A DNA stretch of 64,000 nucleotides, taken from Candidatus Dojkabacteria bacterium. GTDB taxonomy: Bacteria > Patescibacteriota > Dojkabacteria > J137. Every line of letters begins with the position of its first letter. The first letter of the stretch is position 1. Location of the stretch: the NCBI GenBank assembly GCA_030834985.1, contig JAUQWV010000001.1:120979-184978 (forward strand), read 5' to 3'. Below are positions 25,832-56,930 of the stretch, piece after piece. A program made the translations under genes and the position numbers. The notes under the pieces were generated by a model that saw only the letters and a program-made list of their open reading frames with translations, had not been told where the DNA came from and made no database searches.

Positions 25832-25859
25832 TTGTTTGCTCAGGTTTCTCTGCTATAAT
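25832..25859 (+). promoter_or_regulatory. putative promoter TTGTTT-16-TATAAT upstream of the surface-protein gene
   Basis: Hexamers read from the sequence. The ORF-track TTG start at 25836 lies inside this element, which argues for a downstream start. Confidence 0.3.
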
Positions 25860-25898
25860 GAACAAAAATATAGTACTTTAGTTGTTATTTATACTATA

Positions 25899-28800
25899 GT
25901 GAAACGACTAACACACCAACTGCGCATTGGTTTGTATTTATCAATGCTAGCAATGTATTTTATTTCTCCCTTGGCTCCATTAGTAGCCGCAGATAATCCC
26001 CCAAGCTCATACCCTAGCGTTTTAGAGCAAGACCTAACGGATGGAACTGTTGAAACACCAGTGGAAGAGGAAGTTCCTGAACAAGAAACTCCTGTAACCG
26101 AGGAAGAACTACCGCTTACTTATCCTACTTCAAGCCCTTTACTTGAAGTTCCAAGTAAGGTTGTAGAAGGTAAAAAGGTTACTTACAATAACATTACTAC
26201 AGGTACAACATATATTTATGATTTCAATAGCGCTGTAACAATTAACTTTGCTGCTTTACCAGAAGGTGAATGGCATTTAAATATTGAGGAAGTTCAAGTT
26301 ACAGTAGATGGTCAAACTACAACAGGTTATGAATTCACTTCGAATTTAGTAGATGGAACTTTTGAATATGCAATGACCTTACCAAATCCTTACGGAACTT
26401 CTGCAGTTGTCAAATATTCTGAAGATGGCACTACTTATCAAGAATTAACTAACGAAGAAGTAGTTAGCAATGTACTAAGGTTCACTGCTGATCACTTTAC
26501 TGTGTTTGTAGTTGTACCTGATGACATTGTTCCAAGTAATATTGTCTCTTACTTTCATCAAGGCTGGAGATTAACTAGAGTTGGTAATGCTTCTATTGGA
26601 TTAACGGATATTACGACAGCAGGAGCTACCAACGCTTTTGGCCCTGACATTATTGGTATGAGTAGACCTGGAGGAGCTGGAACAAACAGGTCATTTCTTG
26701 GTTATTTTGATTATGGAAGAAGATTAAATGAAATAGAACAGATAAAATGGAATAGATTTAGTAATATTGGTAATGATACTTACCTAAACATATTTATTAC
26801 AAATTCCTTTGGAGGTTTTGGTGTTTTAGGTACAACAGCTACAGTTGTTGTTAAACCTAGCATTACACCTGGTGTTTGGCAAGAAGGAGTATTTGATAGT
26901 TCATCAACAGTAGATCTTAGAGTAGGAGGAACAACCTATACGCTTACATGGTCAGAATTAATGTCAACATACGGAAATTGGTTCATATACAATGATGCAA
27001 ATATATTGGCTAATAGGCAAGTAGGCGGAATTGTATTTGTGTCAGGCTCTTCAAGCCCTACCGCACAGCAAGAACATTATTACGATGGCGTTACTTTGGA
27101 TTTTGTAGGTGAAGATCCAATATTTTATGATTTTGTTCAAGAAGTTCCTGAGCAACCGGTGATAGAGATCTTAACTCCACTTTCTGGTTCATATGTAAAA
27201 GGAACAGTTAATGTAAGAGCTAGAATTACAGATTCAGGCTACGGTTTAAATCCTGACTATATTTGGGCAAAATTCTCAGATGGTATATCTCCTGCTGAGT
27301 TTGGCCCAACTTTGATGACATTAGTTCCTGGCGAAACTGATATTTATCAAGCAAATATCAACACAGTTCCTAATAATGGACTTTATAGTGTTGGCGTTGA
27401 TGTAATTGACAATATCGGTATGGGGAGGTCTGCTAAAAATATAAACGTCACGGTAGATAATACAAGACCAACCTTAGTATTTAATAATCCTTCTGTAGCT
27501 AATCAGCTTGTAGGAAGCGACTTTACTGTTAGTGTAACAGCTACTGATAATACTGTACTTAATTATATTGCTGTAAACTTATACAATGCTACTAACACAA
27601 CCTTACTTGGAACTTGTGGTGTATCACCAACTAATCTTGGAGTAAGTACATATACGTTTGAATGTAATATTGATGTAGATTCTTTATCTGAAGGAATCTA
27701 TACTTTGCGAGCAGGAACTTTTGATGCTGCAGGTAATAATCAAACAACAACTGCAACATTTAAGGTTGATAAAACCGCTCCTGTGTTGACAATTAAAGGT
27801 AGCGTATATGGTAATAGCTACACGCCTGAATCAATTGGAGTTGGTCCCTTAAGTAATGTATTTCAAAAAGTTAGCTTTAAGTTATTTGATAATAACTTAA
27901 TTGATAAAGTAACTGTAAACGGTGTTGTAAATGATATGTCAAATAATCAATGGAGTGATGCTAACAACATAATACCAAATAATTACTGGGGTGCTGTTGA
28001 GGGATTAAATACAATTGTACTATTTGACGCAGCTGGTAACAGCACATCATATGACTTTGTATTAGATACTACAGCGCCAGCTACTCCACTTGGCTTACAT
28101 TATTGGGATCCAAGTACTAGTTCTGAGCTAGCATGCGGATCTATTGTTCAACCAAAAAGTATATGGCCAAGATGGGATGCTAATACAGAAAGTGATTTCT
28201 CTCATTATGAATACACATCATTTGATGTAACTACTTCTGCTCCATTCTGGAGAGTTGGATTAGATGAACAGGTTCTAACCATAAACGAATTTCAACATAG
28301 CTGGGTCCCACCTATGGATGGAATTTACGGTTATGCAGTACGTTCGGTAGATGAAGTAGGTAATAAGTCAGACTGGGCTTTGGGTGGTACAGAAACTCTT
28401 GAAGATAGTTGTCAGTATACGGTTGATAGAGTAAGACCAGTTGCACCTGTAATTGTTTACCCTGATGAAAATGATGCCTTTAATGTAATGCCTATTCTTA
28501 ATGATTGGGAACATGAAGAGGAACTATTAGGAATAGACTTTTATAGAGTTGCCTATTTATATGATGATGGACACGTATTCGGCGGCAGTACATGTCCTGG
28601 CTTACAACTAGAAATAGATGGAGAGCTTAAAACTGTTAGCGGTTGTAGAGACGTAACAGCATCACAAAGATTCCATGTTCCAGATACTATAGAAGAAGGC
28701 GGTGTGAATTTTAAAGTTCAAGCATTTGACTTAGCTGGTAACGAAGGTGAATGGAGTGAATGGCGACATTATTATTACGATATTACTCAGCCATCCTCAT

Positions 28801-30704
28801 CCTTTATTTCACCTGCTGATGGAGCAGTATTCGGCGACAACGTAAATCTTGAAGGTGCTTCAGTGGATGTTATTACTTGGGTAGATGAAGTTTATTTAGA
28901 ATATAGCGAAGCTAATGCAGATAACTGGATTCTATTTGCTACATTGCCAAATACATTAGTTGCTAATCCATATGAATGGAGTTATTCTTGGTCACCTTTA
29001 ATAGAAGATGGTGTATACGATATTAGAGTAAGGGCAATGGATGCTGCAGGTAATGTTGAAAGCACAGATTATATTTATGATATTATATTTGATACTACTT
29101 CCCCATTAAATGTTCCTGTAATTACAGCGCCTACTGCTGAACAGTATTTCAACTCTATTCCAATACTAAATAAATGGACAGCAGTTGTTGATGAGCTAAG
29201 TGGTACAAACAGATATCAAGTAGCTTATTTATATGATGATGGACACGTGTTCGGCGGCAGTACATGTCCTGGCGTAGAGATTGAGATCAGTGGAGTACCG
29301 ACAGCAGTTAGCGGTTGTAGAGATACCTCAAATTTAGAAAGAAATCATACTCCAACACTTTCTGAACAAGGAGGTATAACAATCTGGGTAAGGGCAATTG
29401 ATAATGCTGAAAACGTAGGTGACTGGAGTGATCCTATCCATTACTATTACGATGCTACTGTGCCTGCTGTTCCAACAAATGGATTGCCACATAATCAGTA
29501 TAAAAATACAAATGATGGTTGGTACTTTACTTGGAGTGACGTTACTGACTCCGGTTCCCCAATTCATTATGAGTTTATAGCTTCTCAAAATAATTCAGTA
29601 GATGAGTATGGGGTTTTAAATTCTGGAGTTTGGTATAACACAAGTAGTAGCCATCCTGAACAGAATCCATTGAATTTACCACAGATACTAACTGTTGGTG
29701 CTGCTGAAGGTCAATGGTTCTGGCAAGTTCGCGCAATTGATGAAGCTGGTAATACCAGTAATTGGAGCGAAGTGTGGAATGTAACTATAGATATGACAGA
29801 TCCTGGTGTTGAAATCACATTACCAACTGATTCTTCACTACTTTCTGGCATTCAAGATATAAGAGGTACGGTACAAGACAGTAATCTTGCAGGTTACTTG
29901 ATTGCAATTCTTGATACTTCTCTTTCATTAATTGATGGCCCAATTATAGTTACTGACGGTATATCATTTATAGATGCACTATTACTTAACTGGGATACTG
30001 AACTGGAAGCTGATGGTGACTATGTGATTGTATTAGCAGCAGCTGACCTAGCATGGAATTGGTCAGTAGACTTTATTACTGTAACCATTGATAATACACC
30101 TCCGGTATTAGTATTAGAACCAACAGTAGTAATTAATGAAGGTCAAGTTCTTGGCGAAGGAGACATTTTGGAAGAAGGAGGGAATCCAGAAGATCTACAA
30201 ATAGTTTGCAATCCAGAGTTAGATTCACTACCTTTATCAGTGGATGAAGACGAGACAATTCCTGTTGAATGTACAATAACAGATGCTGCAGGCAATACTG
30301 CAACTCAAACAGTTATGGTAACAATTCTGGACGTTCCTGAAACACCAGAACAGCCTCAAGAAGAAACACCTAGTACTAACCCAGGAACTAATACTGGTAA
30401 CAACCCTGGAACACAGGCAACAGCTTTAGGAAACGCAGAAGTTTTAGGTGCTGATAACGAAGGTGATGTTGAAGGCAATAATCCCGCAAGCTTCCCTGTG
30501 GATGAAGATGACTTAACATCTGATGATTTAACAACAAGAAGCTCTGGTAATGTACAAGGTCTTGGTGACTCGCAAACTACTGAAGGTGAAGAAACAAATA
30601 CAACTTCACCATTATTGGTAATATGCTTAGTTGCTGGTGCTTTATTATTAATCTTATTATTCTTGTTCTTATTCTTAAGAAGAGATAACGAGGAAACGAA
30701 CTAA
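25899..30704 (+). CDS. giant secreted or cell-surface protein (~1600 aa) with multiple Ig-like/beta-sandwich repeats and a C-terminal hydrophobic anchor
   Basis: Probable GTG start at 25899 gives a signal peptide VKRLTHQLRIGLYLSMLAMYFISPLAPLVAA|DN (ATG at 25944 is an alternative). The body is Thr/Asn/Gly-rich with repeated ...YYYD.T.P... modules. C-terminus is ...TNTTSPLLVICLVAGALLLILLFLFLFLRRDNEETN. Confidence 0.7.
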   Translation: MKRLTHQLRIGLYLSMLAMYFISPLAPLVAADNPPSSYPSVLEQDLTDGTVETPVEEEVPEQETPVTEEELPLTYPTSSPLLEVPSKVVEGKKVTYNNITTGTTYIYDFNSAVTINFAALPEGEWHLNIEEVQVTVDGQTTTGYEFTSNLVDGTFEYAMTLPNPYGTSAVVKYSEDGTTYQELTNEEVVSNVLRFTADHFTVFVVVPDDIVPSNIVSYFHQGWRLTRVGNASIGLTDITTAGATNAFGPDIIGMSRPGGAGTNRSFLGYFDYGRRLNEIEQIKWNRFSNIGNDTYLNIFITNSFGGFGVLGTTATVVVKPSITPGVWQEGVFDSSSTVDLRVGGTTYTLTWSELMSTYGNWFIYNDANILANRQVGGIVFVSGSSSPTAQQEHYYDGVTLDFVGEDPIFYDFVQEVPEQPVIEILTPLSGSYVKGTVNVRARITDSGYGLNPDYIWAKFSDGISPAEFGPTLMTLVPGETDIYQANINTVPNNGLYSVGVDVIDNIGMGRSAKNINVTVDNTRPTLVFNNPSVANQLVGSDFTVSVTATDNTVLNYIAVNLYNATNTTLLGTCGVSPTNLGVSTYTFECNIDVDSLSEGIYTLRAGTFDAAGNNQTTTATFKVDKTAPVLTIKGSVYGNSYTPESIGVGPLSNVFQKVSFKLFDNNLIDKVTVNGVVNDMSNNQWSDANNIIPNNYWGAVEGLNTIVLFDAAGNSTSYDFVLDTTAPATPLGLHYWDPSTSSELACGSIVQPKSIWPRWDANTESDFSHYEYTSFDVTTSAPFWRVGLDEQVLTINEFQHSWVPPMDGIYGYAVRSVDEVGNKSDWALGGTETLEDSCQYTVDRVRPVAPVIVYPDENDAFNVMPILNDWEHEEELLGIDFYRVAYLYDDGHVFGGSTCPGLQLEIDGELKTVSGCRDVTASQRFHVPDTIEEGGVNFKVQAFDLAGNEGEWSEWRHYYYDITQPSSSFISPADGAVFGDNVNLEGASVDVITWVDEVYLEYSEANADNWILFATLPNTLVANPYEWSYSWSPLIEDGVYDIRVRAMDAAGNVESTDYIYDIIFDTTSPLNVPVITAPTAEQYFNSIPILNKWTAVVDELSGTNRYQVAYLYDDGHVFGGSTCPGVEIEISGVPTAVSGCRDTSNLERNHTPTLSEQGGITIWVRAIDNAENVGDWSDPIHYYYDATVPAVPTNGLPHNQYKNTNDGWYFTWSDVTDSGSPIHYEFIASQNNSVDEYGVLNSGVWYNTSSSHPEQNPLNLPQILTVGAAEGQWFWQVRAIDEAGNTSNWSEVWNVTIDMTDPGVEITLPTDSSLLSGIQDIRGTVQDSNLAGYLIAILDTSLSLIDGPIIVTDGISFIDALLLNWDTELEADGDYVIVLAAADLAWNWSVDFITVTIDNTPPVLVLEPTVVINEGQVLGEGDILEEGGNPEDLQIVCNPELDSLPLSVDEDETIPVECTITDAAGNTATQTVMVTILDVPETPEQPQEETPSTNPGTNTGNNPGTQATALGNAEVLGADNEGDVEGNNPASFPVDEDDLTSDDLTTRSSGNVQGLGDSQTTEGEETNTTSPLLVICLVAGALLLILLFLFLFLRRDNEETN
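28440..28798 (+). repeat. internal duplicated module, copy 1 (~120 aa domain)
   Basis: Copies share a 51 nt core with 2 mismatches (28571..28621 vs 29224..29274, gcctatttatatgatgatggacacgtattcggcggcagtacatgtcctggc) and the protein motif AYLYDDGHVFGGSTCPG...VSGCRD. Confidence 0.7.
29109..29475 (+). repeat. internal duplicated module, copy 2
   Basis: See copy 1; the two copies are separated by one unrelated Ig-like domain. Confidence 0.7.
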
Positions 30705-30780: not shown

Positions 30781-33700
30781 TTAAGAGAATAACGCGCAGT
30801 ATTCACACTGGCCGCATCTTGGATAATCATCACTTCCGAATTCAAGTTTACGAACTCTAGTGACTATATCGTTGATCTTATCTTTTACAATAGCAATGTC
30901 ATCTTCTGAGATTTGATAATTTACTTTTTTAAACACATTTTTGTCTTTATCTGGCTTTAAAAAGTCTACTTGCACCTCTGATACTATATATTTATCTAGC
31001 TTACCTTTTGGCTTAAAGCTTCTGTCAAGGTCTGTTAAAAGTTTATAGAAAATGAGTTGTCTATAAATATTACCTTTAGAATCTTTTGTAGTGCCTTTTA
31101 TTTGCCCCTCTGTTTTAGGTTCCGATGTTTTATAGTCTACCAATCTTACCTGATTGTTTTCCTTATCTAACCATTCAACTTTATCTATCTTGCCGGTTAA
31201 TTCGATTGGATCTTGATTAGGTAATTCTAGAAATATTCCTTTACTAAAGAACCCGTATTCTACATCTGCTGGTACCTCTATTAGGTCTTTATATTGTGTA
31301 AAATAATTTTTTAGGATCTTCAAACCCTCATCTTTGATTTGTTTGTATTCATCTTCATTTAGTAATTGTCTATCTAAGCTTACTAAGAACATTGCGTTTA
31401 CAAAGCTTATGTCTTTCTGCTGACTCTTAATTAGATTTCTAAAGTATTGCTCAAAGGCATAGTGAATTGCGGTACCCAATATCAAATTGCTATTAGATCC
31501 TTTAGGTGTTTTAATTAGACAGTTGAATTTAAATTTTAAGGGGCATTCTATATACTCATTTAAGGCAGATGCGCTTAATCTGAAGTCTTTAACCAAAGAC
31601 TTCAAATATTCTTCTTCTGTAATAGAATATGGAGCTAAAATATTGGTATTCAAGTCCTTAACGGTATTAATTTCTATAGTTGGAGTTGCATAATCATCGT
31701 GGAATTCAATATATTTTTTATCAAGCTCTGATAAAAATATACTTGGTGAGACCTCCTTTGTAGAGTTACCAGATGGATAAACCTTGGAGTAAGTAATATA
31801 GACCTTTTCACGGGCCCTTGTTAATGCAACAAAGAAAAGCCTACGCTCATCTTCCATATCATCAATGTCGATTTTTTCGGTATCATCTTCTTTTGTTAAA
31901 TCGTAAATGTCAGGAATAAGTTTTAACTTGTCTGCTACCCGGCTATTTCCCCAGTTCTTATCGTAAAACTTAACTATAAATACATATTTATATTCTAAAC
32001 CTTTAGATTTATGTGCAGTCATAAGGTTTACGCCTTCTTTTTCTAGAATAATATCACTTTCTTGTATGCTTAGTTTATTAGCTTCTAGCAAAGTTATATC
32101 TTCCAAAACTTCTGACAAAGTCAGATTTTTATTTTGTAAGTTTAGATTTTTAACATAATCAAAAAACGATTGTATTGAGTTTATTATTTCAAGATTGTTT
32201 TCTTTTATGAAATAGTCAAGGTATCCACTATCGTTGGCTACTTTAATTAAAAAGTTATAAAAATTATAATTTGCAGAATCTGCTTTCCAGTTAATGATAT
32301 TATTGGCTAGTTCAACAATTTTGGATTTATGTTCAATATGTGCTTCATCCAGCGCAGCTTCGTCTAACATTAAATCTATAATTGAAATTTTTTTATCTGC
32401 CGCTGCTCTAGTTAATTTAAATGCATCTAATCTATTTATACCTAAAAAGTTATAGAACATTATTGTGAATAAAAGCTTATCTCGATTTTTATCTGTAAAA
32501 TCAACGACTTTTAAAAGGTTAATAAGCTGCAGTATTTCCTGCTGATCTAAAGAGTTTTTACCAGCAGCGAGTTTGATAGGAACACCATTGTTAATAAGGT
32601 CTAGGGCAAGATCGCTGCCGTCAGCATGTCTTTTATAAAATACAGCAATATCGTTATAACTAATACCGTTTGCAGCAAGCTCTTTGATCTTTTGTATAAT
32701 AAAGTTATTTTCGTGCTGATAGTGCTCAAATTCGTAAACTTCAGCTAGATGGTTGGGAATACTCAATCCTGCTTTTAATCTTTTATCTACTCCTTTTAAA
32801 ATCTTATTGAGTCTTGCTTTATTGTTATCTATTAAGCTAGAAGACAAATCTAAAATATGCTGTGAAGATCTGTAGTTTGTAGTTAAAGAAATTGTAGTTA
32901 CATTCTCAAACTGTTTTTCAAAAAAAAGCAGATTTTCAACATTTGCACCCTGGAATCTGTAAATCGCTTGATCATCGTCTCCTACTGCAAAGATATTAGG
33001 GCTCTTATCAAAGGCAAAAAGCTTTAATAATTCGTTTTGAGAACCATTTGTATCCTGGTATTCATCAACTAAAATATATAAAAACTGCTCTTGGTATTCA
33101 GCTAAAAGCTCATCATCTTTTTTAAACTTATCTATTACAAATAAAATCATATCTTCGTAATCGTAAAAACCTTTTTCTAAAAGTACTTCGCTATATTTTT
33201 TATAAACCATTGCAAGTTCTAGGTTTTTTTTGTAAAGCTTAAGTTTATCTGTATAGTCTTTTTTAGGCTTACCTGTTCTTGAATTGATGTCTGGATTAGC
33301 TTCTAAATCTGCAATAGTTTCTTTACAAATATTTTCCAAAGTTTCGGCAGAAACGCCCTCACGCTTTAATGCCTGAATATTATCTAAAATATTTTTTTGA
33401 TATGTGTATTTATCGTAAAAGGGCACAATTGTAAGTTCTTGTTCGCTTGAAAGTTCATCTAAAATGAGCCTAATGATTTTGATTCTATTAAGGTCATCTA
33501 GTTGTGTTAATTCTTTTGCAAAGGAAAAGTTTTCGGGGTGAGATAATATTACTTCGTTGCAGAAGCTGTGAAAGGTATGAATTCGTACATACAAAGCTTC
33601 CTTACCTATCAGTTTTAAAAGTCTTTTACGCATTGCTGCTACTCCTGACTCTGTAAATGTTAAGCAAAGAATGTTATTTGCAGCAGCGTCAGTTGTGCTT

Positions 33701-33846
33701 AGAATATTAGCAATCCTAAACGATAATACCTGTGTTTTACCAGTTCCAGGCCCTGCAACTACAAGTACAGGACCTTCTATAGCGTTAACTGCTTCCTGCT
33801 GTGAGGGATTTAGCTTTAGTATCTCTGACTCAAGATTTGCATTCAT
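30781..33846 (-). CDS. UvrD/PcrA-family SF1A helicase fused to a C-terminal PD-(D/E)xK nuclease with Cas4/AddB-like cysteine cluster
   Basis: N-terminal VVAGPGTGKTQVL (Walker A), ILVDEYQDTN (motif II), helicase motifs through ~aa 700. C-terminal VDYKTSEPK...YRQLIFYKLL and CGQCEYC with an earlier Cys (YIECPLKF). Confidence 0.75.
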   Translation of the reverse strand: MNANLESEILKLNPSQQEAVNAIEGPVLVVAGPGTGKTQVLSFRIANILSTTDAAANNILCLTFTESGVAAMRKRLLKLIGKEALYVRIHTFHSFCNEVILSHPENFSFAKELTQLDDLNRIKIIRLILDELSSEQELTIVPFYDKYTYQKNILDNIQALKREGVSAETLENICKETIADLEANPDINSRTGKPKKDYTDKLKLYKKNLELAMVYKKYSEVLLEKGFYDYEDMILFVIDKFKKDDELLAEYQEQFLYILVDEYQDTNGSQNELLKLFAFDKSPNIFAVGDDDQAIYRFQGANVENLLFFEKQFENVTTISLTTNYRSSQHILDLSSSLIDNNKARLNKILKGVDKRLKAGLSIPNHLAEVYEFEHYQHENNFIIQKIKELAANGISYNDIAVFYKRHADGSDLALDLINNGVPIKLAAGKNSLDQQEILQLINLLKVVDFTDKNRDKLLFTIMFYNFLGINRLDAFKLTRAAADKKISIIDLMLDEAALDEAHIEHKSKIVELANNIINWKADSANYNFYNFLIKVANDSGYLDYFIKENNLEIINSIQSFFDYVKNLNLQNKNLTLSEVLEDITLLEANKLSIQESDIILEKEGVNLMTAHKSKGLEYKYVFIVKFYDKNWGNSRVADKLKLIPDIYDLTKEDDTEKIDIDDMEDERRLFFVALTRAREKVYITYSKVYPSGNSTKEVSPSIFLSELDKKYIEFHDDYATPTIEINTVKDLNTNILAPYSITEEEYLKSLVKDFRLSASALNEYIECPLKFKFNCLIKTPKGSNSNLILGTAIHYAFEQYFRNLIKSQQKDISFVNAMFLVSLDRQLLNEDEYKQIKDEGLKILKNYFTQYKDLIEVPADVEYGFFSKGIFLELPNQDPIELTGKIDKVEWLDKENNQVRLVDYKTSEPKTEGQIKGTTKDSKGNIYRQLIFYKLLTDLDRSFKPKGKLDKYIVSEVQVDFLKPDKDKNVFKKVNYQISEDDIAIVKDKINDIVTRVRKLEFGSDDYPRCGQCEYCALFS

Positions 33847-41339: not shown

Positions 41340-41340
41340 G

Positions 41341-41405: not shown

Positions 41406-41424
41406 AATAAATTATTATTATCTT

Positions 41425-42629: not shown

Positions 42630-42655
42630 TATAGTATATAAAATTTATTAGGAAA

Positions 42656-43480: not shown

Positions 43481-43524
43481 TGTCTGAAACGTTATTATAA
43501 AATACTTAGTATTAGGTTTTTTAT

Positions 43525-44565: not shown

Positions 44566-44595
44566 TTACCCTTAATTAGGTATACGTGTTATATA

Positions 44596-46422: not shown

Positions 46423-47190
46423 ATGGATAATATAAACTCAAAGCAAATTGTTTTAAATGGTCTTCTAATAAATTACTATCTCAATAATATTGAAGATTCC
46501 AAAAAAACTATAATATTTATTCATGGCTGGTTAAGTGAATCGCGAGTTTGGTTTCATTTAATGCACGCTTTAACTAAAGCTAGCTATAAGTGTTTTGCAA
46601 TAGATTTACCAGGTTTTGGGCAATCTCAAGTTCCCGAAAGTTCCGTAGATAATACCTTTTATGCAGATATTATTGACCAATTTGTAAAAAAGCTGAATTT
46701 AAGCAATGTTGTACTAGTTGGGCATTCAAATGGAGGTGCAGTGTGTGTTAAATATTTAAATAAAGATTCTGCAAACGTAGTACAGCTTATTCTGATAGAT
46801 TCAGCAGGCATTCGTGAGCAAACAACAACTAAGAGGATTAAAAGATTTATTGCAGAAATTGTAAGGCCAATATTTAAATTTAGCTTATTAAAGCCGCTTA
46901 GAAATAAAATATATAGAGTTATGGGGTCTGAGGACTATATAAATTCAGAATACTTGCATGATACTTACAAAAACGTGGTAAATGAAGATATCTCTGACTT
47001 ATTTATTAACGTAAAAGTACCAACACTTATTATTTGGGGGGAAAATGACGGTGCGACCCCTCTAAGGTACGCAGATTTTATACATAGCAGTATTGAGGGG
47101 TCGCAGCTAGTAGTTCTTGATACTGGCCACTTCCCTTTTCAAGAAAAGCCGAGCGAGGTAATTAATGAAATTATTACTTTTATAAAATGA
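46423..47190 (+). CDS. alpha/beta-fold hydrolase
   Basis: HGW oxyanion region IIFIHGWLSE, nucleophile elbow VGHSNGG, C-terminal DTGHFP catalytic-His region. Confidence 0.75.
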   Translation: MDNINSKQIVLNGLLINYYLNNIEDSKKTIIFIHGWLSESRVWFHLMHALTKASYKCFAIDLPGFGQSQVPESSVDNTFYADIIDQFVKKLNLSNVVLVGHSNGGAVCVKYLNKDSANVVQLILIDSAGIREQTTTKRIKRFIAEIVRPIFKFSLLKPLRNKIYRVMGSEDYINSEYLHDTYKNVVNEDISDLFINVKVPTLIIWGENDGATPLRYADFIHSSIEGSQLVVLDTGHFPFQEKPSEVINEIITFIK

Positions 47191-47939
47191 ATATATTCGA
47201 AGACAGCATTAATCTATTAAAAGGTTCAGCCTTTACAGAGATTACTGTTAACGATACTTTTATTTTTTTAGAAAGCCCTGCAATTTTTAGCGAATATATT
47301 GTTCCTTTGACTTGGTTAGATAAATTTGATACTCAAACAGCTCATGAGCTTTTTCTAAAAGAAAGTGAAGAAGAAAAAAATATTTCATACTACATAAGAC
47401 ATACTTTACAAAGTGAATATAGCGGTTATCTAAAGAGTTTAAAACTTTCGCATGATTATACTGATTCGTATATGGTAAATGAGCTCAAGACTTTAACTAA
47501 GTTTGATGATAAAGGAACTACTTTATTAGAAGTGACTGAAAATACTTTTGAAGAATACAAGGCTATTGCACTTGATATTTTCAATACATGGGTTAATGAA
47601 GAAGACTATGTAAATCATTTTCATAATTTAGCAATAAATCAACAATCGGAAACTAAAAACTTTAAAGACTTTTGTCTTACTCTTAATGATACTATTGTCA
47701 GTATTGCTTCTGTAGTGTGGGATACAGAAATGAATTTGGCATATATTCATAATGCAGGCACATTAATTGATTTTAGAAAAAATGGATATTTTACAATAAT
47801 TAACGGTTACTTAGCTAATTATCTTTTCAACTTAGGAATTACTAGAATTTATGCTATCGTTGAAAAAGATTCGGATTCACAGAATATTTATAGACGATTA
47901 AATTTTAAAGAACAAGATACTTATTATTCTTATAGTTAA
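47187..47939 (+). CDS. hypothetical protein, possible GNAT-fold acetyltransferase
   Basis: C-terminal LAYIHNAGTLIDFRKNGYFTIINGYLANYLFNLGITRIYAIVEKD looks GNAT-like. Overlaps the upstream stop by 4 bp. Confidence 0.35.
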   Translation: MNIFEDSINLLKGSAFTEITVNDTFIFLESPAIFSEYIVPLTWLDKFDTQTAHELFLKESEEEKNISYYIRHTLQSEYSGYLKSLKLSHDYTDSYMVNELKTLTKFDDKGTTLLEVTENTFEEYKAIALDIFNTWVNEEDYVNHFHNLAINQQSETKNFKDFCLTLNDTIVSIASVVWDTEMNLAYIHNAGTLIDFRKNGYFTIINGYLANYLFNLGITRIYAIVEKDSDSQNIYRRLNFKEQDTYYSYS

Positions 47940-47948
47940 GACCACTAA

Positions 47949-49412
47949 ATGAAATTTCTGCCTCATAAGATACTTTTATATCACTTTTATATTTTTCAAT
48001 TAGAAGAATATGACTCCGCTAGGTTTATTAAAGCCATTATCGCAAAAGGACTATTCCCACCTGCTGACTTAAGAAAGAAAGCAAAGCTAACATCAAAAGC
48101 TCTGTTATTGATTGGCTTAACACTTCTTCAGCAAATACTGATTACTCTACTGTTAGCTTTGCTTTTGTACACTGTATTTAATAATCTGCTTGTTTTGATA
48201 CTAACTTCAGCAATTGTTATATATATATTTATTGTTTTGTCATTTATTTTTCTTATTCAGGCAAAAGATCTTTTATGGCCATTAGACTATTTTGTAAAGG
48301 TAAGAATGATTAATCAGGCTAAGAAAAAACTAAAGATACTGCCTAACTTAAAAATAATAGGGATTACAGGCAGTTATGGAAAAACCACAATGAAAGAAAC
48401 AGTTTATACATTTTTAAATGAGGAATTTAAAGTTGTTAAAACAGAAGGCAACAATAATACGCCGTTAGGAATTGCTAGAACAATACTAAATAAAGTCGAT
48501 GATACTACTGAAATATTTATTGTTGAAATGGGTGAATATATAAAAGGTGATGTTAAAGCTTTGTGTGAAATTGCTACACCTGATATTTCAATAATAAGCG
48601 GTATTAACGAAGCTCATTTAGAGCGTTACAAAACAATGGAAAACGCTATTTCTACTAAATTTGAAATTGTTGAATATGCAAAGCCCAATGCATTTGTTCT
48701 GCTTAATGCTGATGATGAATTAACCCTTGATAATTACAATAAATATATTACTAATCACAAATCTGAATGGTTTACTGCTAAAAATAATAAGTTAAGCGAA
48801 TACAGTACTACAAATTATGAATTCGATCAGAATGGCAAAGGGCAGGAGTTTAATTTATTACATAAAGGTAATGATCTAGGTAAAATTAAAGTTCCAGTAT
48901 TAGGCGAATATATAATAGGAAATATTATTGCAGGATTTATTGTAGGTAAGTTTTTAGGTATTGCAGATTCCAAATTAAGATTTGCAGCTTCAATGATAAA
49001 GCCTGTTGAACATAGATTAGAGCCTATTTACAATAAATCCTCTGATATTTTAGTAATTGACGACACATACAATGGCAATTCAGATGGTATTAAAGAAGGA
49101 ATAAGACTATTATCTAAATTTAAAAATCGAAGAAAAGTTTATGTTACACCGGGTTTAGTAGAAACTGGCGACCTTGCTGAGAGCATTCATTTACAAATTG
49201 GAGCTGACCTAAGCAAGGTCGCCGATCTTGTAATTCTAGTCAAAAACAGCGTAACACCTTTTATTTTTAAAGGACTTGTTGATAACGGTTTTACTGAAGA
49301 TAAAATAATCTGGTACGACAACTCTAAGAGTGTGTGGGAAGATCTTAATAAAAACGTAGTAAAAGGTGATGTTGTATTGTTGCAAAACGACTGGAGTGAT
49401 AACTACGTGTAG
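47949..49412 (+). CDS. murF: UDP-N-acetylmuramoyl-tripeptide--D-alanyl-D-alanine ligase with N-terminal transmembrane segment
   Basis: Mur ligase P-loop IIGITGSYGKTTMKE and the MurF-type DDTYNGNSDG motif. Residues ~50-105 form two strongly hydrophobic helices (LLLIGLTLLQQILITLLLALLL / LVLILTSAIVIYIFIVLSFIFLI). Confidence 0.75.
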   Translation: MKFLPHKILLYHFYIFQLEEYDSARFIKAIIAKGLFPPADLRKKAKLTSKALLLIGLTLLQQILITLLLALLLYTVFNNLLVLILTSAIVIYIFIVLSFIFLIQAKDLLWPLDYFVKVRMINQAKKKLKILPNLKIIGITGSYGKTTMKETVYTFLNEEFKVVKTEGNNNTPLGIARTILNKVDDTTEIFIVEMGEYIKGDVKALCEIATPDISIISGINEAHLERYKTMENAISTKFEIVEYAKPNAFVLLNADDELTLDNYNKYITNHKSEWFTAKNNKLSEYSTTNYEFDQNGKGQEFNLLHKGNDLGKIKVPVLGEYIIGNIIAGFIVGKFLGIADSKLRFAASMIKPVEHRLEPIYNKSSDILVIDDTYNGNSDGIKEGIRLLSKFKNRRKVYVTPGLVETGDLAESIHLQIGADLSKVADLVILVKNSVTPFIFKGLVDNGFTEDKIIWYDNSKSVWEDLNKNVVKGDVVLLQNDWSDNYV

Positions 49413-49478: not shown

Positions 49479-50657
49479 ATGAATATTGCAGTTTTCTTTG
49501 GAGGAAAAAACACTGAACACGATGTATCAATCATTACAGGTCAGTTAATAATTTCTGGACTTAAAAAGATTGGGCACACTGTTTACCCGGTATATATTGC
49601 TAAAGATGGTAAATGGTACATTGATGAAAGAATGGATAATGTAGAATTTTTCAAACCATTCAACTCGAAAGGTTTAGGAGAGTTCAATTTAAATATGTCT
49701 CAGAATCTTGATGGTTCATTGACAATAAAGACATCTGGACTCTTTCCAAAAACATACAAAATAGATTTAGCTTTTCCCGCAATCCACGGAAAAAATGGTG
49801 AAGATGGAACTATACAAGGCATGTTTGAAATGCTTAATATCCCTTACGTAGGCTGTGGAGTGGTTGCAAGTGGTATTGCTATGGATAAGGTGTTAACAAA
49901 GCTTTTTTATCAGCGATTTAACTTTCCTACAACCAAATTTGTGCACTTTACAACACAGGAATGGCAGGAAAAGAAAGATAGTTTATTAAAAGAGATTAAT
50001 AATACTCTAACCTGGCCTGTATTTGTAAAACCAGCAAGGTTGGGCTCGTCAATTGGTATGACTAAAGTGAAGTCTGAAGATGATTTAGAGTTTGCTATTG
50101 AAGTTGCACTTCATTACGATAATAAAGTTTTAGTTGAAGAAAGTGTTGAAGATCTAATGGATGTCACTGTCTGTTTAATAGGTAATCAGAATCCCAGATA
50201 TTCTTTAATTCAGGAATCAGCTTTCTCAAGTGATTTTTTCTCGTATGAAGATAAGTATTTAAATGAAGGTGGAGCCCAATTAGGCAATGCTGAAAAAAGT
50301 ATAGTGATACCGGCAAGATTAGATGAAAAAACTACTCAAGAAATTCGAGAAATGGCCTCTGAAATATATATGCTGATGGGTATGTCTGGAATTGCACGGG
50401 TTGATTTTTTATATAACAAAACATATAAAAAGTTCTATGCAAATGAGATTAATACCCTACCGGGAACACTCTACTATCATTTGTGGAAAAAAAGCGGAAT
50501 TGAGCTAGATGATCTGCTTAAGATGCTAGTAGACTTTGCTTTAGAAAAGAAAAAAGAAGACGATAAACTAACCTATACATTTGAATCTACTATTCTAAAA
50601 TCAGCGAATTCAAACAAACTTCAGCTTAAAGGCAGGCAAAACTCTTCCAAAGGCTAA
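49479..50657 (+). CDS. ddl: D-alanine--D-alanine ligase (ATP-grasp)
   Basis: MNIAVFFGGKNTEHDVSIITGQ N-terminus, HGKNGEDGTIQG, ATP-grasp core, C-terminal NEINTLPG. Confidence 0.85.
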   Translation: MNIAVFFGGKNTEHDVSIITGQLIISGLKKIGHTVYPVYIAKDGKWYIDERMDNVEFFKPFNSKGLGEFNLNMSQNLDGSLTIKTSGLFPKTYKIDLAFPAIHGKNGEDGTIQGMFEMLNIPYVGCGVVASGIAMDKVLTKLFYQRFNFPTTKFVHFTTQEWQEKKDSLLKEINNTLTWPVFVKPARLGSSIGMTKVKSEDDLEFAIEVALHYDNKVLVEESVEDLMDVTVCLIGNQNPRYSLIQESAFSSDFFSYEDKYLNEGGAQLGNAEKSIVIPARLDEKTTQEIREMASEIYMLMGMSGIARVDFLYNKTYKKFYANEINTLPGTLYYHLWKKSGIELDDLLKMLVDFALEKKKEDDKLTYTFESTILKSANSNKLQLKGRQNSSKG

Positions 50658-50729
50658 TAACGCCTTGATTTATTTGTACACCTATATATACTAGATACTA
50701 GCTATTATTATTTTATTTACCTTTTATAT

Positions 50730-52574: not shown

Positions 52575-52613
52575 ATGAGAATTTGGATTGTCTTTTGAGA
52601 TAAAAGTTTAGGA

Positions 52614-52639
52614 GGGGGCACCCGAAAGGTGCCCCCTTT
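52614..52639. terminator. bidirectional terminator hairpin gggggcacc-cgaaa-ggtgccccc plus ttt
   Basis: 9 bp GC stem between convergent genes. Confidence 0.55.
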
Positions 52640-52640
52640 G

Positions 52641-53537
52641 CTATCTTTCTAGTTCAGTTACTATATCTCTAAGTTCTGCAGCTTTTTCAAATTCCAGCAT
52701 ATCTGCGTACAACTGCATTTGAAACTTGATTTCTTTTAAGAATTTTTTCTGTTCAGATTTATTCATAGCTTTAAAGCTTTCGGCTTTTGCCAATAAGTTT
52801 TGTTCTTCAGCAGCTTCCTGCTCTGATTCGCTGCCCCCGGCAAAAGCCGAAAGCTGATCCTTAATCTCTTTTACGACTGTTGTAGGAGTAATTCCATGCT
52901 CTTTATTAAACTTATCTTGAATTGCTCTTCTGCGTCTAGTTTCATCAATTGCAAATTTCATAGAATCAGTAATTTTATCAGCATACATTATTACTCTGCC
53001 TTCAGAGTGTCTGGCTGCTCTACCTATTACCTGAATTAAACTAGTCTGAGATCTTAAAAAACCTTCTTTATCGGCATCTAAAATTGCTACTAACGATACT
53101 TCTGGCAAATCTAAGCCCTCTCTTAAAAGGTTAATACCAACAAGCACATCGTACTGTCCTAATCTTAATTCCTTTAATATCTTTACTCTTTCCAAAGAAT
53201 CTATATCTGAATGCAAGTATTTTGCCTTAATGCCTTTTTCAGTAAGATAGTCAGATAGTTCTTCTGACATTCTTTTTGTTAAAGTTGTAACTAGAACCCT
53301 TTGCTTTTTTTTAATGGTCGCCTGAATTTCATCTATTAAGTTTGGAACCTGTGGTTGAGTCCAATCTGATGCGTTATATAAAGGCATATCTGTATAGCCG
53401 TTTTTTTCTAAATCTTTTTTGAGGTTAGAAAATGTCTCGGGCAATGAAGGACGAACTTCTACAATAGGGTCAAGAAGCCCTGTTGGTCTAATAATTTGAT
53501 AAACAATTCCTTTGTAGTCTTTTGGTAAAATTGCCAT
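52641..53537 (-). CDS. uvrB: UvrB C-terminal half only (helicase domain 2 plus UvrC-binding UVR domain); N-terminal ATPase half absent, possible pseudogene
   Basis: [16 protein letters not shown], then [18 protein letters not shown]...[57 protein letters not shown], near-identical to recollected E. coli UvrB from ~residue 400. C-terminal [11 protein letters not shown] is the UVR motif. Only 37 nt separate it from dcd upstream, so there is no room for the missing half. Confidence 0.7.
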
Positions 53538-53574
53538 GCTTTAATTTTAGCACTGCATGGATAATTAGCGTAGT

Positions 53575-54138: not shown

Positions 54139-54152
54139 ATATGTTTAGTTAA

Positions 54153-55961
54153 TTATGTACGTTCTGAAAACTGTTGTCTAGAGTTGTAATCTGGTGCCGA
54201 GATATCTTCAGTCATTCCTACCAAAAATGGATCAGAGTTCTGTATAAGTGTAAGCATATCGTGTGCCATATCTCTATTAGAAATATCGTTACCAGTTGTA
54301 GAGCGTTGGTCTGTAAAGTAATCCAATTGTGTAGGTGGTCCGCTTAAGTGCATTCGCGTTTGATGTCCTAGTGGAAGCAGTTTTCTAATTACAGTTAGAT
54401 CTTTATTAGGAAATCTTGCCGCTAAATATTTATAGAATTCCATTAACTTTTGATAATATGCATTGGCATCAGCTTCCCATTGACCCTGTAAGTGCTGTAA
54501 ACCTTCAGTTTTAATAATTTTTGAACTTGTATTAAAGCCATTCGCGATCATAGCCTCATAGTCTACTTGGTCATTTTCGTTATAATCAAAATTTAGCAAG
54601 TATCCAATATCTTGTCTACCTAACGCTCTGTGTCGATTAAAGTCTCTTAATTGGGCTAATGCGGTATTAAGTACAAATAATTTATCACCTCTAATATCAC
54701 CTAGATTACCCATCTTTTCATGTCGAGTATGATTTTGGAATATAATTGAACCTATCTCTCTTTTTGCTTGATCATCTAATGTGGCCAACCAACTTAATAC
54801 TGTTGATTCTTTAAGATTAGGATATGCGGTGCAAATGTACTGCATTGCTACTAAAGCGCCACTTGGGGCGCCGTCAATAAGGGTTACTTCTGTTTGCCTT
54901 GCATAATCCACGGTGTTAGGGACGGCGCCCTCCAATAACTCATTAAATGCTGGCATTGCTTCCAAATATGCTCTTAAATTACTTACGTTTTCTCTTATTG
55001 TAAGTGTAGGATCAGTATATTTTATTAATGGTTCAAGATTCGCATTTACATCTTGCCCCTCTTCTGTTTCTGAAAGTGAAAGTGCAAATCTAAGTTGCTC
55101 TGCTAACTCTACATATTCCTGCTCGCCAGTTTCTTGCATTATTTTTATATAGTTATTGAAGATTCTTTGATTACCTAATAGGCACATAGAAGTAGTTGCG
55201 CCCATAGGAATCCAACTTCTTACTACATCTAACACTCTGGCTTTTATAGTATTGTCTTCTAATGGTTCATCTTCTGGATTGCCTGCAAACTGCTGTAGGT
55301 AACCCTGCTCAATTAATTGGTACCACTTAACGTAATTACCTTCAGCCATTGCTAATAGCTCATAATATTGCTCAATAATATGCTCTTTATCCGCTTCAGA
55401 TCCTGCAGGAATTACCGAAAAATCCATTAAATCTTCAATCCGCGGAAAATTCATCTTATTGAATTTTATATATCTGCTTGAAGATTCCTGTCCATCGCCA
55501 TACCATAGATGATGGAAAATCCAGTATGCCTGCTCTAGCGATATATTATTAAAGAATAGAAATACTGGAATCATTCCCAGGATAGATTGATGTCCATAAT
55601 CTAGTCCAAATTCCTTAATCTTTCTTGCAGCAGCAACAGGATCCATTTGTACAAGCTCCAATACTTCATCAAAGATCTCTTCATAGCTTTTTCTAGTTCT
55701 AGAGGTTCTGGCGCCGCTCCAGGCGGGAAAAATATGCTTATCTATTCCTCCTTCTGATTTCGGTTCACTAAATGGAAAGAATGAGACAATCGGTTTTGTA
55801 GGATCTTGTCTTTTAACCTGATATAGCAAGTTGTGCAGTTTACCGTCAACTTCTCTTGTTACAACATCGATAGAAAATTTAGGAGGGTGTTGTACTTCAG
55901 CTTCTGATTCTACAGATTCTGGCCGTGTTTTAGATATTTCTTGATTCTGATCTAAAGACAT
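54153..55961 (-). CDS. large ThyX-family (flavin-dependent thymidylate synthase)-like protein with duplicated-domain architecture (602 aa)
   Basis: C-terminal half: FNRHRALGRQDIGY (RHR motif) and RKLLPLGHQTRMHLSGPPTQLDYF, aligned by eye to recollected T. maritima ThyX [24 protein letters not shown]. N-terminal half: GHQSILGMIPVF and YWIFHHLWYGDGQESSSRYIKF versus ThyX GHETPFEHIVF / [20 protein letters not shown] (RHR degenerate, SxRY kept). Adjacent to dcd. Confidence 0.5.
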   Translation of the reverse strand: MSLDQNQEISKTRPESVESEAEVQHPPKFSIDVVTREVDGKLHNLLYQVKRQDPTKPIVSFFPFSEPKSEGGIDKHIFPAWSGARTSRTRKSYEEIFDEVLELVQMDPVAAARKIKEFGLDYGHQSILGMIPVFLFFNNISLEQAYWIFHHLWYGDGQESSSRYIKFNKMNFPRIEDLMDFSVIPAGSEADKEHIIEQYYELLAMAEGNYVKWYQLIEQGYLQQFAGNPEDEPLEDNTIKARVLDVVRSWIPMGATTSMCLLGNQRIFNNYIKIMQETGEQEYVELAEQLRFALSLSETEEGQDVNANLEPLIKYTDPTLTIRENVSNLRAYLEAMPAFNELLEGAVPNTVDYARQTEVTLIDGAPSGALVAMQYICTAYPNLKESTVLSWLATLDDQAKREIGSIIFQNHTRHEKMGNLGDIRGDKLFVLNTALAQLRDFNRHRALGRQDIGYLLNFDYNENDQVDYEAMIANGFNTSSKIIKTEGLQHLQGQWEADANAYYQKLMEFYKYLAARFPNKDLTVIRKLLPLGHQTRMHLSGPPTQLDYFTDQRSTTGNDISNRDMAHDMLTLIQNSDPFLVGMTEDISAPDYNSRQQFSERT

Positions 55962-56899: not shown

Positions 56900-56930
56900 T
56901 AGTTAAATCTGTTTAGATGAATTTTAAAAA

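What the first reader, a model, noticed from the sequence alone, without database searches (positions are those of the whole stretch)
47949..48300. MurF with two N-terminal transmembrane helices in place of the usual N-domain
The Mur-ligase central and C-terminal domains are typical (GITGSYGKTT, DDTYNGNSDG). Residues ~50-105 form two long hydrophobic helices, and the usual soluble N-terminal UDP-binding domain is not apparent. A membrane-tethered MurF would be unusual. It is cotranscribed with ddl.
Basis: partly seen in the sequence, partly recalled or inferred. Interest (0 to 1): 0.5.

Follow-up and report, generated by a model that had tools for sequence, protein, structure and literature searches.

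The report
Membrane-anchored MurF of Patescibacteria
The cell-wall enzyme MurF of this small-genome (Patescibacteria/CPR) bacterium has lost its usual nucleotide-binding front domain and carries instead a conserved short helical segment plus two membrane-spanning helices, an architecture shared by hundreds of relatives across the group and apparently not described in the papers searched.

Summary
ORF 47949..49412 (+, 487 aa) has typical Mur-ligase central and C-terminal domains whose best sequence and fold matches are MurF. The canonical N-terminal domain 1, which holds the uridine pocket, is absent. In its place are a roughly 50-residue helical tail, two hydrophobic helices (51-77 and 80-105) and a long linker helix into the P-loop. 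No downstream start codon restores an N-domain.

This is a family trait and not an oddity of this gene:
- An exhaustive profile search with the N-terminal module alone finds 422 representative proteins, every inspected one fused to a MurF-type ligase.
- The 70 genome loci found come from many Patescibacteria classes.
- The transmembrane residues vary, but polar residues flanking them (Q17, E19, Y21, R25, T48, K50, P111, K117) are as conserved as the catalytic residues.
- Charge distribution predicts an N-in/C-in hairpin with the catalytic domains in the cytoplasm.
- The gene lies in a conserved trio: alpha/beta-hydrolase, murF, ddl.

The most likely reading is the housekeeping D-Ala-D-Ala-adding enzyme held at the inner membrane face, with the conserved tail replacing domain 1. 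A bolder reading, that it acts on lipid-linked precursors, is not excluded. I rate it a new variant of a known kind, of moderate interest.

The parts
47949..49412 (+). murF-type ligase gene, 487 aa plus stop (Patescibacteria membrane-anchored form)
47949..48098 (+). Conserved cytoplasmic N-tail, residues 1-50: two short helices (5-18, 23-33) and a basic loop. Motif Y-x-x-Y-x-x-Q-L-E-x-Y-x3-R-F ... R-K-x3-x-T-x-K.
   Evidence: AlphaFold2 secondary structure. Conservation in 207 members: T48 206, K50 201, Q17 200, Y21 195, E19 192, R25 190. Net charge +4.8. No Pfam family.
48099..48179 (+). Transmembrane helix 1, residues 51-77
   Evidence: KD about 2.3. Hessa -2.2 kcal/mol for 51-73. Model helix 49-77. 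Residues not conserved, only hydrophobicity.
48180..48185 (+). Short outside loop, residues 78-79 (NN); variable in length among homologs
   Evidence: Alignment A1. Net charge about 0.
48186..48263 (+). Transmembrane helix 2, residues 80-105
   Evidence: KD up to 2.9. Hessa -5.9 kcal/mol for 80-103. Model helices 80-96 and 98-129.
48264..48344 (+). Juxtamembrane linker helix, residues 106-132, continuous with TM2 and running into the P-loop strand. It is the retained C-terminal remnant of canonical domain 1.
   Evidence: The profile aligns query 109-135 with E. coli MurF 67-100 and T. maritima MurF from residue 70. P111 203/207, K117 198, A124 202. Net charge +4.5.
48345..48968 (+). Mur-ligase central (ATP-binding) domain, residues 133-340, with P-loop GITGSYGKTT (138-147), E193, H223 and K237 (position of E. 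coli MurF K202)
   Evidence: Pfam PF08245 139-332. K145, E193 and H223 invariant in 207 sequences.
48969..49409 (+). Mur-ligase C-terminal domain, residues 341-487, with R356 and DDTYNGN (371-377)
   Evidence: Pfam PF02875 355-478. R356 207/207, D371 205/207.
49479..50657 (+). ddl (D-alanine--D-alanine ligase), 66 nt downstream on the same strand
   Evidence: Pfam Dala_Dala_lig_N and _C. NCBIfam NF002528 331.5 bits, above cutoff. Downstream of the TM-MurF in 61 of 74 loci.
46423..47190 (+). alpha/beta-hydrolase (255 aa) with a conserved Ser-Asp-His triad; first gene of the conserved hydrolase-murF-ddl trio
   Evidence: Pfam Abhydrolase_1 7.9e-30. Directly upstream on the same strand in 69 of 74 loci. 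HGW, GHSxGG, D..TP and GH motifs conserved in 67 homologs.
47187..47939 (+). GNAT-like ORF (250 aa) inserted between the hydrolase and murF in this lineage only
   Evidence: Weak Pfam Acetyltransf_1 (20.8 bits against a 20.7 cutoff, E 4.9e-4) and FR47 (below cutoff). Present only in L005 and L006 among 74 loci. No significant solved relative; one chance-level hit at E 0.099.
50650..50676 (+). Terminator-like stem-loop and T-rich tail overlapping the ddl stop codon (50655-50657); possible operon end
   Evidence: There are only two such sites in the region, which is no more than shuffles give, so this is weak evidence.

Best explanation
This is the Patescibacteria (CPR) form of MurF, the ATP-dependent ligase that adds D-Ala-D-Ala to the MurNAc-tripeptide precursor.

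Its two catalytic domains are orthodox and face the cytoplasm. A helical hairpin (TM1 51-77, TM2 80-105, N-in/C-in) holds them at the inner face of the membrane, and TM2 continues as a rigid helix straight into the P-loop strand.

The canonical domain 1, which in other MurF enzymes holds the uridine-ribose pocket, has been replaced by a ~50-residue helical N-tail. Near-invariant polar and aromatic residues in this tail (Y14, Q17, E19, Y21, R25, R42, T48, K50), together with P111, D113 and K117 at the TM2 exit, are inferred to form the substitute binding site for the nucleotide-diphosphate end of UDP-MurNAc-tripeptide. The product would then be released next to MraY.

Ddl, encoded immediately downstream, supplies the dipeptide.

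Shown here: the architecture, the topology prediction, the conservation and the gene linkage. Inferred: the substrate, the role of the N-tail and hand-over to MraY.
For: Enzyme identity:
- MurF is the best family by sequence: TIGR01143 scores 207.7 bits against 71.5 for MurD and 61.7 for MurE. PDB MurF entries give E 1e-49 to 1e-34.
- Catalytic residues are invariant: K145, E193, H223 and R356 are each 207/207. The window protein keeps K237, which aligns with E. coli MurF K202.
- ddl is adjacent here and in 61 of 74 loci.

Membrane hairpin:
- Two hydrophobicity scales call the helices, and the AlphaFold2 model is confident (pLDDT 92.8, pTM 0.88).
- Positive-inside rule: net charge is +4.8 for the N-tail, about 0 for the loop and +4.5 after TM2.

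Functional module and not only a tether:
- N-tail and linker residues are 92-99% conserved across 207 members, while no transmembrane column reaches 90%.
- The module occurs only fused to MurF-type ligases. There are 422 representatives; the short hits inspected are truncated fragments.

Background from the literature:
- Domain 1 binds the uridine-ribose in canonical MurF (PMC11569785). It is the UDP-substrate site in Mur ligases generally (PMC10745416).
- There is precedent for a membrane-anchored Mur-family ligase with cytoplasmic catalytic domains. PgsB needs its N-terminal hydrophobic segment for membrane localisation and for product formation (PMC7490850).
Against: No biochemical data exist for any member.

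I could not inspect the model coordinates. Whether the conserved N-tail residues line the substrate cleft or face the membrane is therefore unknown.

Nothing shows that the N-tail can bind uridine, and it has no similarity to any known nucleotide-binding motif.

I did not establish that these genomes lack a second, canonical MurF.

About a third of family members have Ile, Val or Leu at the carbamoyl-lysine position. The chemistry may therefore not be fully canonical across the family.

The TIGR01143 score is below the curated cutoff.
Confidence: 0.6

Rival explanations
1. Lipid-linked substrate. The enzyme adds D-Ala-D-Ala to an undecaprenyl-pyrophosphate-linked MurNAc-tripeptide (lipid I or lipid II tripeptide) and not to the soluble UDP precursor. 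The membrane surface takes the place of the uridine-binding domain. The invariant interfacial residues (R42, T48, K50, P111, D113, K117) would bind the pyrophosphate at the membrane face.
For: The uridine-binding part of domain 1 is missing.

The profile alignment puts E. coli MurF residue ~67 opposite query residue 109, only four residues after TM2. The membrane face therefore sits where domain 1 normally is.

The most conserved N-module residues flank the membrane boundaries.

There is a precedent. MurT, a Mur-ligase homolog, acts on lipid I and lipid II but on none of the UDP-linked precursors. [quoted passage not shown]
Against: This requires MraY to transfer a tripeptide precursor, which would be a reordering of a universally conserved pathway, and nothing here shows that.

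The conserved aromatic and acidic residues well before the membrane boundary (Y14, Q17, E19, Y21) are not obviously needed to bind a pyrophosphate. They would suit a nucleoside.

The roughly 25-residue helix between TM2 and the P-loop could hold the active site too far from the bilayer if it stands upright.

No mraY or murG linkage was seen in any locus.
Confidence: 0.2
2. Pure tether or scaffold. The hairpin only localises MurF, for example into a complex with MraY and MurG. The conserved N-tail is a protein-protein docking surface, and the UDP substrate is bound by the central and C-terminal domains alone.
For: TM residues are not conserved, as expected of a simple anchor. PgsB is anchored in a comparable way. 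Mur ligases can form multi-enzyme assemblies, for example the MurE-MurF fusion structure 8f5d that appears among the fold matches.
Against: In canonical enzymes domain 1 contributes the uridine pocket, so losing it without replacement should cost affinity. The near-invariance of small polar residues (T48, Q17, E19) resembles a ligand site more than a docking surface. No partner gene is linked except the cytoplasmic hydrolase and ddl.
Confidence: 0.12
3. Not a MurF in function. A Mur-family ligase recruited to a different membrane-proximal reaction, with another acceptor or another amino-acid or dipeptide donor, for example in salvage of host-derived muropeptides together with the linked hydrolase.
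For: The score is below the TIGR01143 cutoff. The carbamoyl-lysine position varies in the family. A conserved serine hydrolase of unknown role is linked.
Against: MurF is clearly the nearest family by both sequence and fold. Linkage to ddl is nearly universal. The below-cutoff score is explained by the unmatched ~72 N-terminal profile positions.
Confidence: 0.06
4. Annotation or assembly artefact: a wrong start codon, or fusion of a small membrane-protein gene to a truncated murF.
For: None found. There is no strong ribosome-binding site upstream, but that is not informative on its own.
Against: The same 430-530-aa architecture, with the N-tail motif about 120 residues before the P-loop, occurs in most loci with a complete ORF among the 74 loci and 206 full-length database proteins from independent assemblies. 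The upstream gene ends 9 nt before the ATG. The only alternative ATG (M120) leaves no N-domain.
Confidence: 0.02

Closest known systems
Canonical MurF (UDP-MurNAc-tripeptide--D-Ala-D-Ala ligase; e.g. T. maritima 3ZL8, E. coli 1GG4, A. baumannii 4QDI)
   Different: The first ~66 residues of domain 1, the alpha/beta subdomain with the uridine-ribose pocket, are absent. They are replaced by a ~50-residue helical tail plus a two-helix membrane hairpin. The protein is predicted to be integral to the membrane, not soluble. The score falls below the TIGR01143 cutoff.
MurT of the MurT/GatD lipid II amidotransferase
   Different: MurT is soluble and works with GatD. It has a DUF1727-type C-terminal domain and amidates D-Glu rather than adding a dipeptide. 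The protein here has an ordinary Mur_ligase_C domain, no GatD neighbour and two TM helices.
PgsB/CapB (poly-gamma-glutamate synthetase catalytic subunit)
   Same: A Mur-family amide ligase anchored by an N-terminal hydrophobic segment, with catalytic domains in the cytoplasm. The anchor is required for function (PMC7490850).
   Different: PgsB has a single ~21-residue anchor, works with PgsC, PgsA and PgsE, and polymerises glutamate. No pgsC or pgsA-like neighbours occur here, and PgsB is not among the listed family matches (best 20 shown).
Fused or scaffolded Mur ligases (MurE-MurF fusion 8F5D)
   Same: Another way to keep late cytoplasmic steps of precursor synthesis spatially organised.
   Different: Those are soluble fusions that retain domain 1. 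Here a single enzyme is tethered to the membrane and domain 1 has been lost.

Membership tests
MurF (EC 6.3.2.10; TIGR01143) | Mur-ligase central domain with an ATP-binding P-loop | tested here: met
   PF08245 at residues 139-332, E 2.6e-34. GITGSYGKTT is present. K145 is 207/207 in the family.
MurF (EC 6.3.2.10; TIGR01143) | Mur-ligase C-terminal domain | tested here: met
   PF02875 at residues 355-478, 37.3 bits against a cutoff of 28.4.
MurF (EC 6.3.2.10; TIGR01143) | Closer to MurF than to MurC, MurD, MurE or Mpl | tested here: met
MurF (EC 6.3.2.10; TIGR01143) | Whole-protein score above the curated family cutoff | tested here: not met
   207.7 bits against a cutoff of 288.6. Only profile positions 73-403 of 418 are matched.
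MurF (EC 6.3.2.10; TIGR01143) | N-terminal domain 1 that binds the UDP (uridine-ribose) end of the substrate | tested here: not met
   No N-domain hit in Pfam or NCBIfam. PDB MurF chains align only from their residue ~67-70 onward. The model is all-helical for residues 1-129. About 120 N-terminal residues are unaligned in fold searches.
MurF (EC 6.3.2.10; TIGR01143) | Lysine at the carbamoylation position (E. coli MurF K202; its requirement in MurD, MurE and MurF is recalled from the literature, not re-read here) | tested here: met
   Window K237 aligns with E. coli residue 202. Family-wide it is K in only 126 of 207 members.
MurF (EC 6.3.2.10; TIGR01143) | Genomic or functional link to D-Ala-D-Ala supply (ddl) | tested here: met
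   ddl lies 66 nt downstream and is downstream in 61 of 74 loci.
MurF (EC 6.3.2.10; TIGR01143) | Catalyses addition of D-Ala-D-Ala to UDP-MurNAc-tripeptide | not testable with these tools
   Needs an enzyme assay or complementation.
MurT-type (lipid II-acting Mur-ligase homologs) | GatD glutaminase partner and a DUF1727-type C-terminal domain | tested here: not met
   The C-terminal domain is PF02875. The neighbours are a hydrolase, a GNAT-like ORF and ddl, with no GatD.
MurT-type (lipid II-acting Mur-ligase homologs) | Acts on lipid-linked and not UDP-linked precursor | not testable with these tools
   Only indirect hints: loss of domain 1 and the interfacial position of the conserved residues.
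PgsB/CapB membrane-anchored amide ligase | pgsC and pgsA partner genes, and PgsB-type sequence | tested here: not met
   No PgsB model among the NCBIfam hits listed (best 20 shown). No such neighbours.
Patescibacteria TM-MurF family (defined here) | N-tail motif [QH]x[YCA][LI][LF]QLE[EN]Y, then two hydrophobic helices, then P-x-D/E-x3-K, then the P-loop about 120 residues after the motif | tested here: met
   The window protein is 42-98% identical over its full length to 120 members.

The most novel reading that the evidence does not exclude
The Patescibacteria MurF has exchanged its nucleotide-binding domain for the membrane itself. It would add D-Ala-D-Ala to an undecaprenyl-pyrophosphate-linked MurNAc-tripeptide at the inner membrane face, as MurT does for amidation. 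In this large radiation the last 'cytoplasmic' step of precursor synthesis would then occur after the MraY step.
Probability: 0.2. Interest if true: 0.85.

Novelty: new variant of a known kind. Interest (0 to 1): 0.55.

Why it matters
Mur ligases MurC-F are treated as soluble cytoplasmic enzymes whose domain 1 holds the UDP end of the substrate (PMC10745416). Here a whole bacterial radiation uses an integral-membrane MurF that lacks that domain.

If the enzyme still uses the UDP precursor, it shows a second, much smaller solution for recognising it. It would also be a hard-wired form of substrate channelling to MraY.

If the enzyme uses a lipid-linked acceptor, the order of the peptidoglycan pathway differs in a large part of bacterial diversity.

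Either way there are practical consequences:
- MurF inhibitors aimed at the uridine pocket of domain 1 would probably not act on these organisms.
- Annotation pipelines score these proteins below the MurF family cutoff. Some are labelled only 'Mur ligase family protein'.
- A large protein-family survey lumped them with MurE as 'cytoplasmic'.

The tightly linked serine hydrolase adds an uncharacterised component to D-Ala-D-Ala metabolism in these bacteria.

Tried and rejected
- Alternative start codons. Only M120 is an in-frame ATG, and it removes everything before the P-loop, so it cannot restore an N-domain.
- A separately encoded N-domain. None of the neighbours scanned against Pfam (33877-45843, 46423-47939 and 50730-63024) has a Mur_ligase N-domain.
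- Known families for the N-module. Pfam scans of 28 N-modules at E up to 1 gave only scattered noise hits to membrane families.
- Other Mur ligases. I looked in the window and 74 loci to compare their N-termini. None was present, so I could not test whether MurC, MurD and MurE are soluble or whether a second MurF exists.
- Literature. Four searches combining MurF or Mur ligase with transmembrane, membrane-anchored, Patescibacteria, CPR or Saccharibacteria and one looser two-of-five-term search found nothing describing this architecture. Méheust et al. 2019 list one merged MurE/MurF family predicted cytoplasmic.
- Promoter and terminator scans were no better than shuffles.
- Odd hits. The 738-aa representative P0235 has an extra transglutaminase-like domain in front of the module. 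P0137 looks like a chimera with a glycosyltransferase. Both are single cases and were not pursued.
- The GNAT-like ORF has no significant solved relative; the single hit at E 0.099 is chance-level.
Full report
**1. What is there**

The finding's coordinates (47949-48300) are the first 117 codons of a 487-codon ORF, 47949..49412 on the + strand.
- Pfam recognises only the Mur-ligase middle domain (139-332, E 2.6e-34) and C-terminal domain (355-478, E 5.8e-9).
- Among NCBIfam models the best is murF (TIGR01143, 207.7 bits), followed by two bifunctional and single MurF models. MurD (71.5 bits) and MurE (61.7 bits) come far behind.
- The murF match covers only profile positions 73-403 of 418, and the score is under the 288.6-bit cutoff.
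- A profile of 40 family members aligned to solved MurF chains starts at about residue 67-70 of those chains. T. maritima 3zl8 gives E 1.2e-49 and E. coli 1gg4 gives E 3e-45.

The part of canonical domain 1 that precedes the connecting helix is therefore missing.

**2. The hydrophobic helices are real**

- Kyte-Doolittle 19-residue means are 2.3-2.9 over residues ~50-105, against a maximum of 1.78 anywhere else in the protein.
- With the position-independent Hessa scale, 51-73 scores -2.2 kcal/mol and 80-103 scores -5.9 kcal/mol.
- An AlphaFold2 model built on the 40-sequence alignment is confident (mean pLDDT 92.8, pTM 0.88). Residues 1-129 are entirely helical: H5-18, H23-33, a loop, H49-77, H80-96 and H98-129. 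The last helix runs straight into the first strand of the P-loop domain.
- The only downstream in-frame ATG is M120, which would leave no N-domain. The upstream gene ends 9 nt before the annotated ATG.

**3. It is a family trait of Patescibacteria**

- A database search returned more than 100 full-length homologs (42-98% identity, most 465-526 aa). Source names include Dojkabacteria, Roizmanbacteria, Buchananbacteria, Paceibacterota and 'Patescibacteria group'.
- All of them have hydrophobic N-terminal segments, and nearly all a shared N-terminal motif. Four begin inside or after the motif, probably through miscalled starts.
- In 121 sequences, no window with negative insertion energy lies outside the N-terminal part.
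- An exhaustive HMM search of 1.84 billion cluster representatives used the N-module alone (residues 1-130, alignment A2). It found 422 proteins at E ≤ 1e-3 and 165 at E ≤ 1e-10. Most listed hits are full-length, about 430-530 aa.
- The shorter hits that I inspected are truncated fragments that break off inside the ligase domain.
- A pattern scan of one genome per species found 70 confirmed loci. They come from Dojka-, Roizman-, Magasanik-, Campbell-, Doudna-, Buchanan-, Jackson-, Berkel-, Lipton- and Gribaldobacteria, Paceibacterota, Microgenomates and unclassified Patescibacteria.
- Two records are labelled Gammaproteobacteria (L058, L070). They carry the same gene trio, and their Ddl is 53-56% identical to the window's, so I regard the labels as doubtful.
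- In most loci where the ORF is complete, my P-loop pattern lies ~120-160 residues after the start; in seven it was not matched.
- The nearest named genome is Patescibacteria group bacterium BroJett037 (MurF 70.5% and Ddl 79% identical, same gene order).

**4. Anatomy and conservation**

- In 207 full-length members no column of either TM helix reaches 90% identity, and the loop between the helices varies in length.
- The N-tail and the post-TM linker, by contrast, hold near-invariant polar residues: T48 206/207, P111 203, A124 202, K50 201, Q17 200, K117 198, Y21 195, E19 192 and R25 190.
- That is the same level of conservation as the catalytic K145, E193, H223 and R356, which are all 207/207.
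- Net charge is +4.8 for the N-tail, about 0 for the inter-helix loop and +4.5 for the post-TM segment. By the positive-inside rule the hairpin is N-in/C-in. This puts the ATP-dependent domains in the cytoplasm, as their chemistry requires.
- The linker segment P111-x-D-x3-K117...A124 aligns with the end of canonical domain 1 (E. coli residues 67-100). The membrane boundary therefore falls about where the body of domain 1 normally sits.
- No Pfam family covers the N-module.

**5. Context**

- ddl follows 66 nt downstream on the same strand (NF002528, 331.5 bits). No terminator-like site lies between the two genes, and one overlaps the ddl stop. Those scans are no better than shuffles.
- Across 74 loci, ddl is downstream in 61. 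A ~255-aa alpha/beta-hydrolase is directly upstream on the same strand in 69, often with overlapping stop and start codons.
- The hydrolase keeps its oxyanion HG, GHSxGG nucleophile elbow, Asp and His in 67 homologs. It resembles generic esterases and arylesterases.
- In the window and its two closest relatives, a 250-aa GNAT-like ORF is inserted between the hydrolase and murF.
- The trio is not part of a division and cell-wall cluster. The surrounding genes are unrelated.

**6. How it most likely works**

Shown:
- A MurF-type catalytic core with intact ATP and Mg residues, including K237, which aligns with E. coli K202.
- A predicted N-in/C-in hairpin.
- A conserved N-tail and linker.
- Tight linkage to ddl.

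Inferred:
- The enzyme is the D-Ala-D-Ala-adding ligase of these organisms, fixed at the inner membrane face.
- The conserved tail, with aromatic (Y14, Y21), amide and acid (Q17, E19) and basic (R25, R42, K50, K117) residues, takes over the role of domain 1 in holding the nucleotide-diphosphate end of UDP-MurNAc-tripeptide.
- The product is made next to MraY.

Supporting background:
- Canonical domain 1 provides the uridine-ribose pocket (PMC11569785). It is the UDP-substrate site of Mur ligases (PMC10745416).
- PgsB shows that a Mur-family ligase can be anchored by an N-terminal hydrophobic segment and can depend on it (PMC7490850).

I put this explanation at about 0.6.

**7. Rivals**

- Lipid-linked acceptor (about 0.2). 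MurT, a Mur-ligase homolog, works on lipid I and II but on none of the UDP precursors. [quoted passage not shown] Here the domain is gone, the membrane sits in its place, and the best-conserved residues flank the membrane boundaries. Against it, MraY would have to transfer a tripeptide precursor. In addition, conserved residues far from the boundary look more like a nucleoside site, and no mraY linkage is seen.
- Pure tether or docking surface (about 0.12).
- A different reaction altogether (about 0.06). This is disfavoured by the clear MurF affinity and the ddl linkage.
- Annotation artefact (about 0.02). This is refuted by the conservation.

**8. Comparison and novelty**

The protein meets the MurF criteria for the catalytic core, for nearest-family status and for ddl linkage. 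It fails two criteria: the curated score cutoff and the presence of domain 1. I therefore file it as a distinct architectural variant of MurF, not a canonical member.

It is neither MurT-like (no GatD partner, ordinary C-terminal domain) nor PgsB-like (no PgsC or PgsA partner).

Five literature searches found no description of a transmembrane MurF. A major CPR protein-family study merged MurE and MurF into one 'cytoplasmic' family. Source annotations name many of these proteins MurF or 'Mur ligase family protein', so the gene is known but the architecture appears unremarked.

My verdict is a new variant of a known kind, with interest 0.55. It rests on solid conservation evidence and raises a directly testable question about substrate recognition and pathway order.

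**9. Limits**

- I could not read the model coordinates.
- I could not check whole genomes for a second MurF or for the state of MurC, MurD and MurE. None is present in the 74 loci.
- Nothing here measures activity.

Noticed in passing
window 46423..47190 (+); L002 7225-8001, L003 7244-8008, L004 7241-7996 and 65 further loci: A ~255-aa alpha/beta-hydrolase with a conserved Ser-Asp-His triad lies directly upstream of the TM-MurF on the same strand in 69 of 74 Patescibacteria loci, often with overlapping stop and start codons. This gives a conserved hydrolase-murF-ddl trio. Its role in D-Ala-D-Ala or precursor metabolism is unknown. Its solved relatives are generic esterases and arylesterases.
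   Followed up: partly
window 48657..48659 (codon K237 of the murF ORF); family alignment of 207 sequences: The lysine that aligns with E. coli MurF K202 is Lys in only 126 of 207 family members and Ile, Val or Leu in about 70. I recall K202 as the carbamoylated lysine required in MurD, MurE and MurF. The window protein has Lys. I did not check whether the non-Lys members form a clade or use different chemistry.
   Followed up: partly
window 47187..47939 (+): A 250-aa GNAT-like ORF sits between the hydrolase and murF, and its start overlaps the hydrolase stop. It has marginal Pfam support (Acetyltransf_1 just at threshold, FR47 below) and no significant solved relative (one chance-level hit). 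Among 74 loci it occurs only in the two closest relatives (L005, L006), so it is a lineage-specific insertion into the operon.
   Followed up: partly
window 52641..53537 (-); L001 19173-20087: A 298-aa ORF contains only the C-terminal half of UvrB (Helicase_C, UvrB and UVR domains). No N-terminal half is adjacent; the next genes are dCTP deaminase and a ThyX-like ORF. A related genome has the same 304-aa fragment, so this may be a split or truncated uvrB conserved in the lineage.
   Followed up: no
window 54153..55961 (-): A ThyX-like ORF of 602 aa has a Thy1 match only at residues 104-290 (E 2.3e-10). This is about twice the usual ThyX length, and the remainder is unannotated.
   Followed up: no
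P0235 (738 aa, from the representative search): One family member carries an extra N-terminal transglutaminase-like core domain (residues 114-202) in front of the N-module (289-406) and the ligase domains. It may be a real fusion or a gene-call or assembly artefact.
   Followed up: partly
L058 and L070 (CAZKKK010000025.1, CAYWLV010000010.1): Two contigs are labelled 'uncultured Gammaproteobacteria' but carry the Patescibacteria-type hydrolase-TM-murF-ddl trio. Their Ddl is 53-56% identical to the window's. This is probably mis-binning or mislabelling. If the labels are real, it would be a transfer outside the group.
   Followed up: partly
window 25836..30704 (+) and 30781..33846 (-): Two very large ORFs (1622 and 1021 aa) lie in a small-genome context. 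They were not examined.
   Followed up: no
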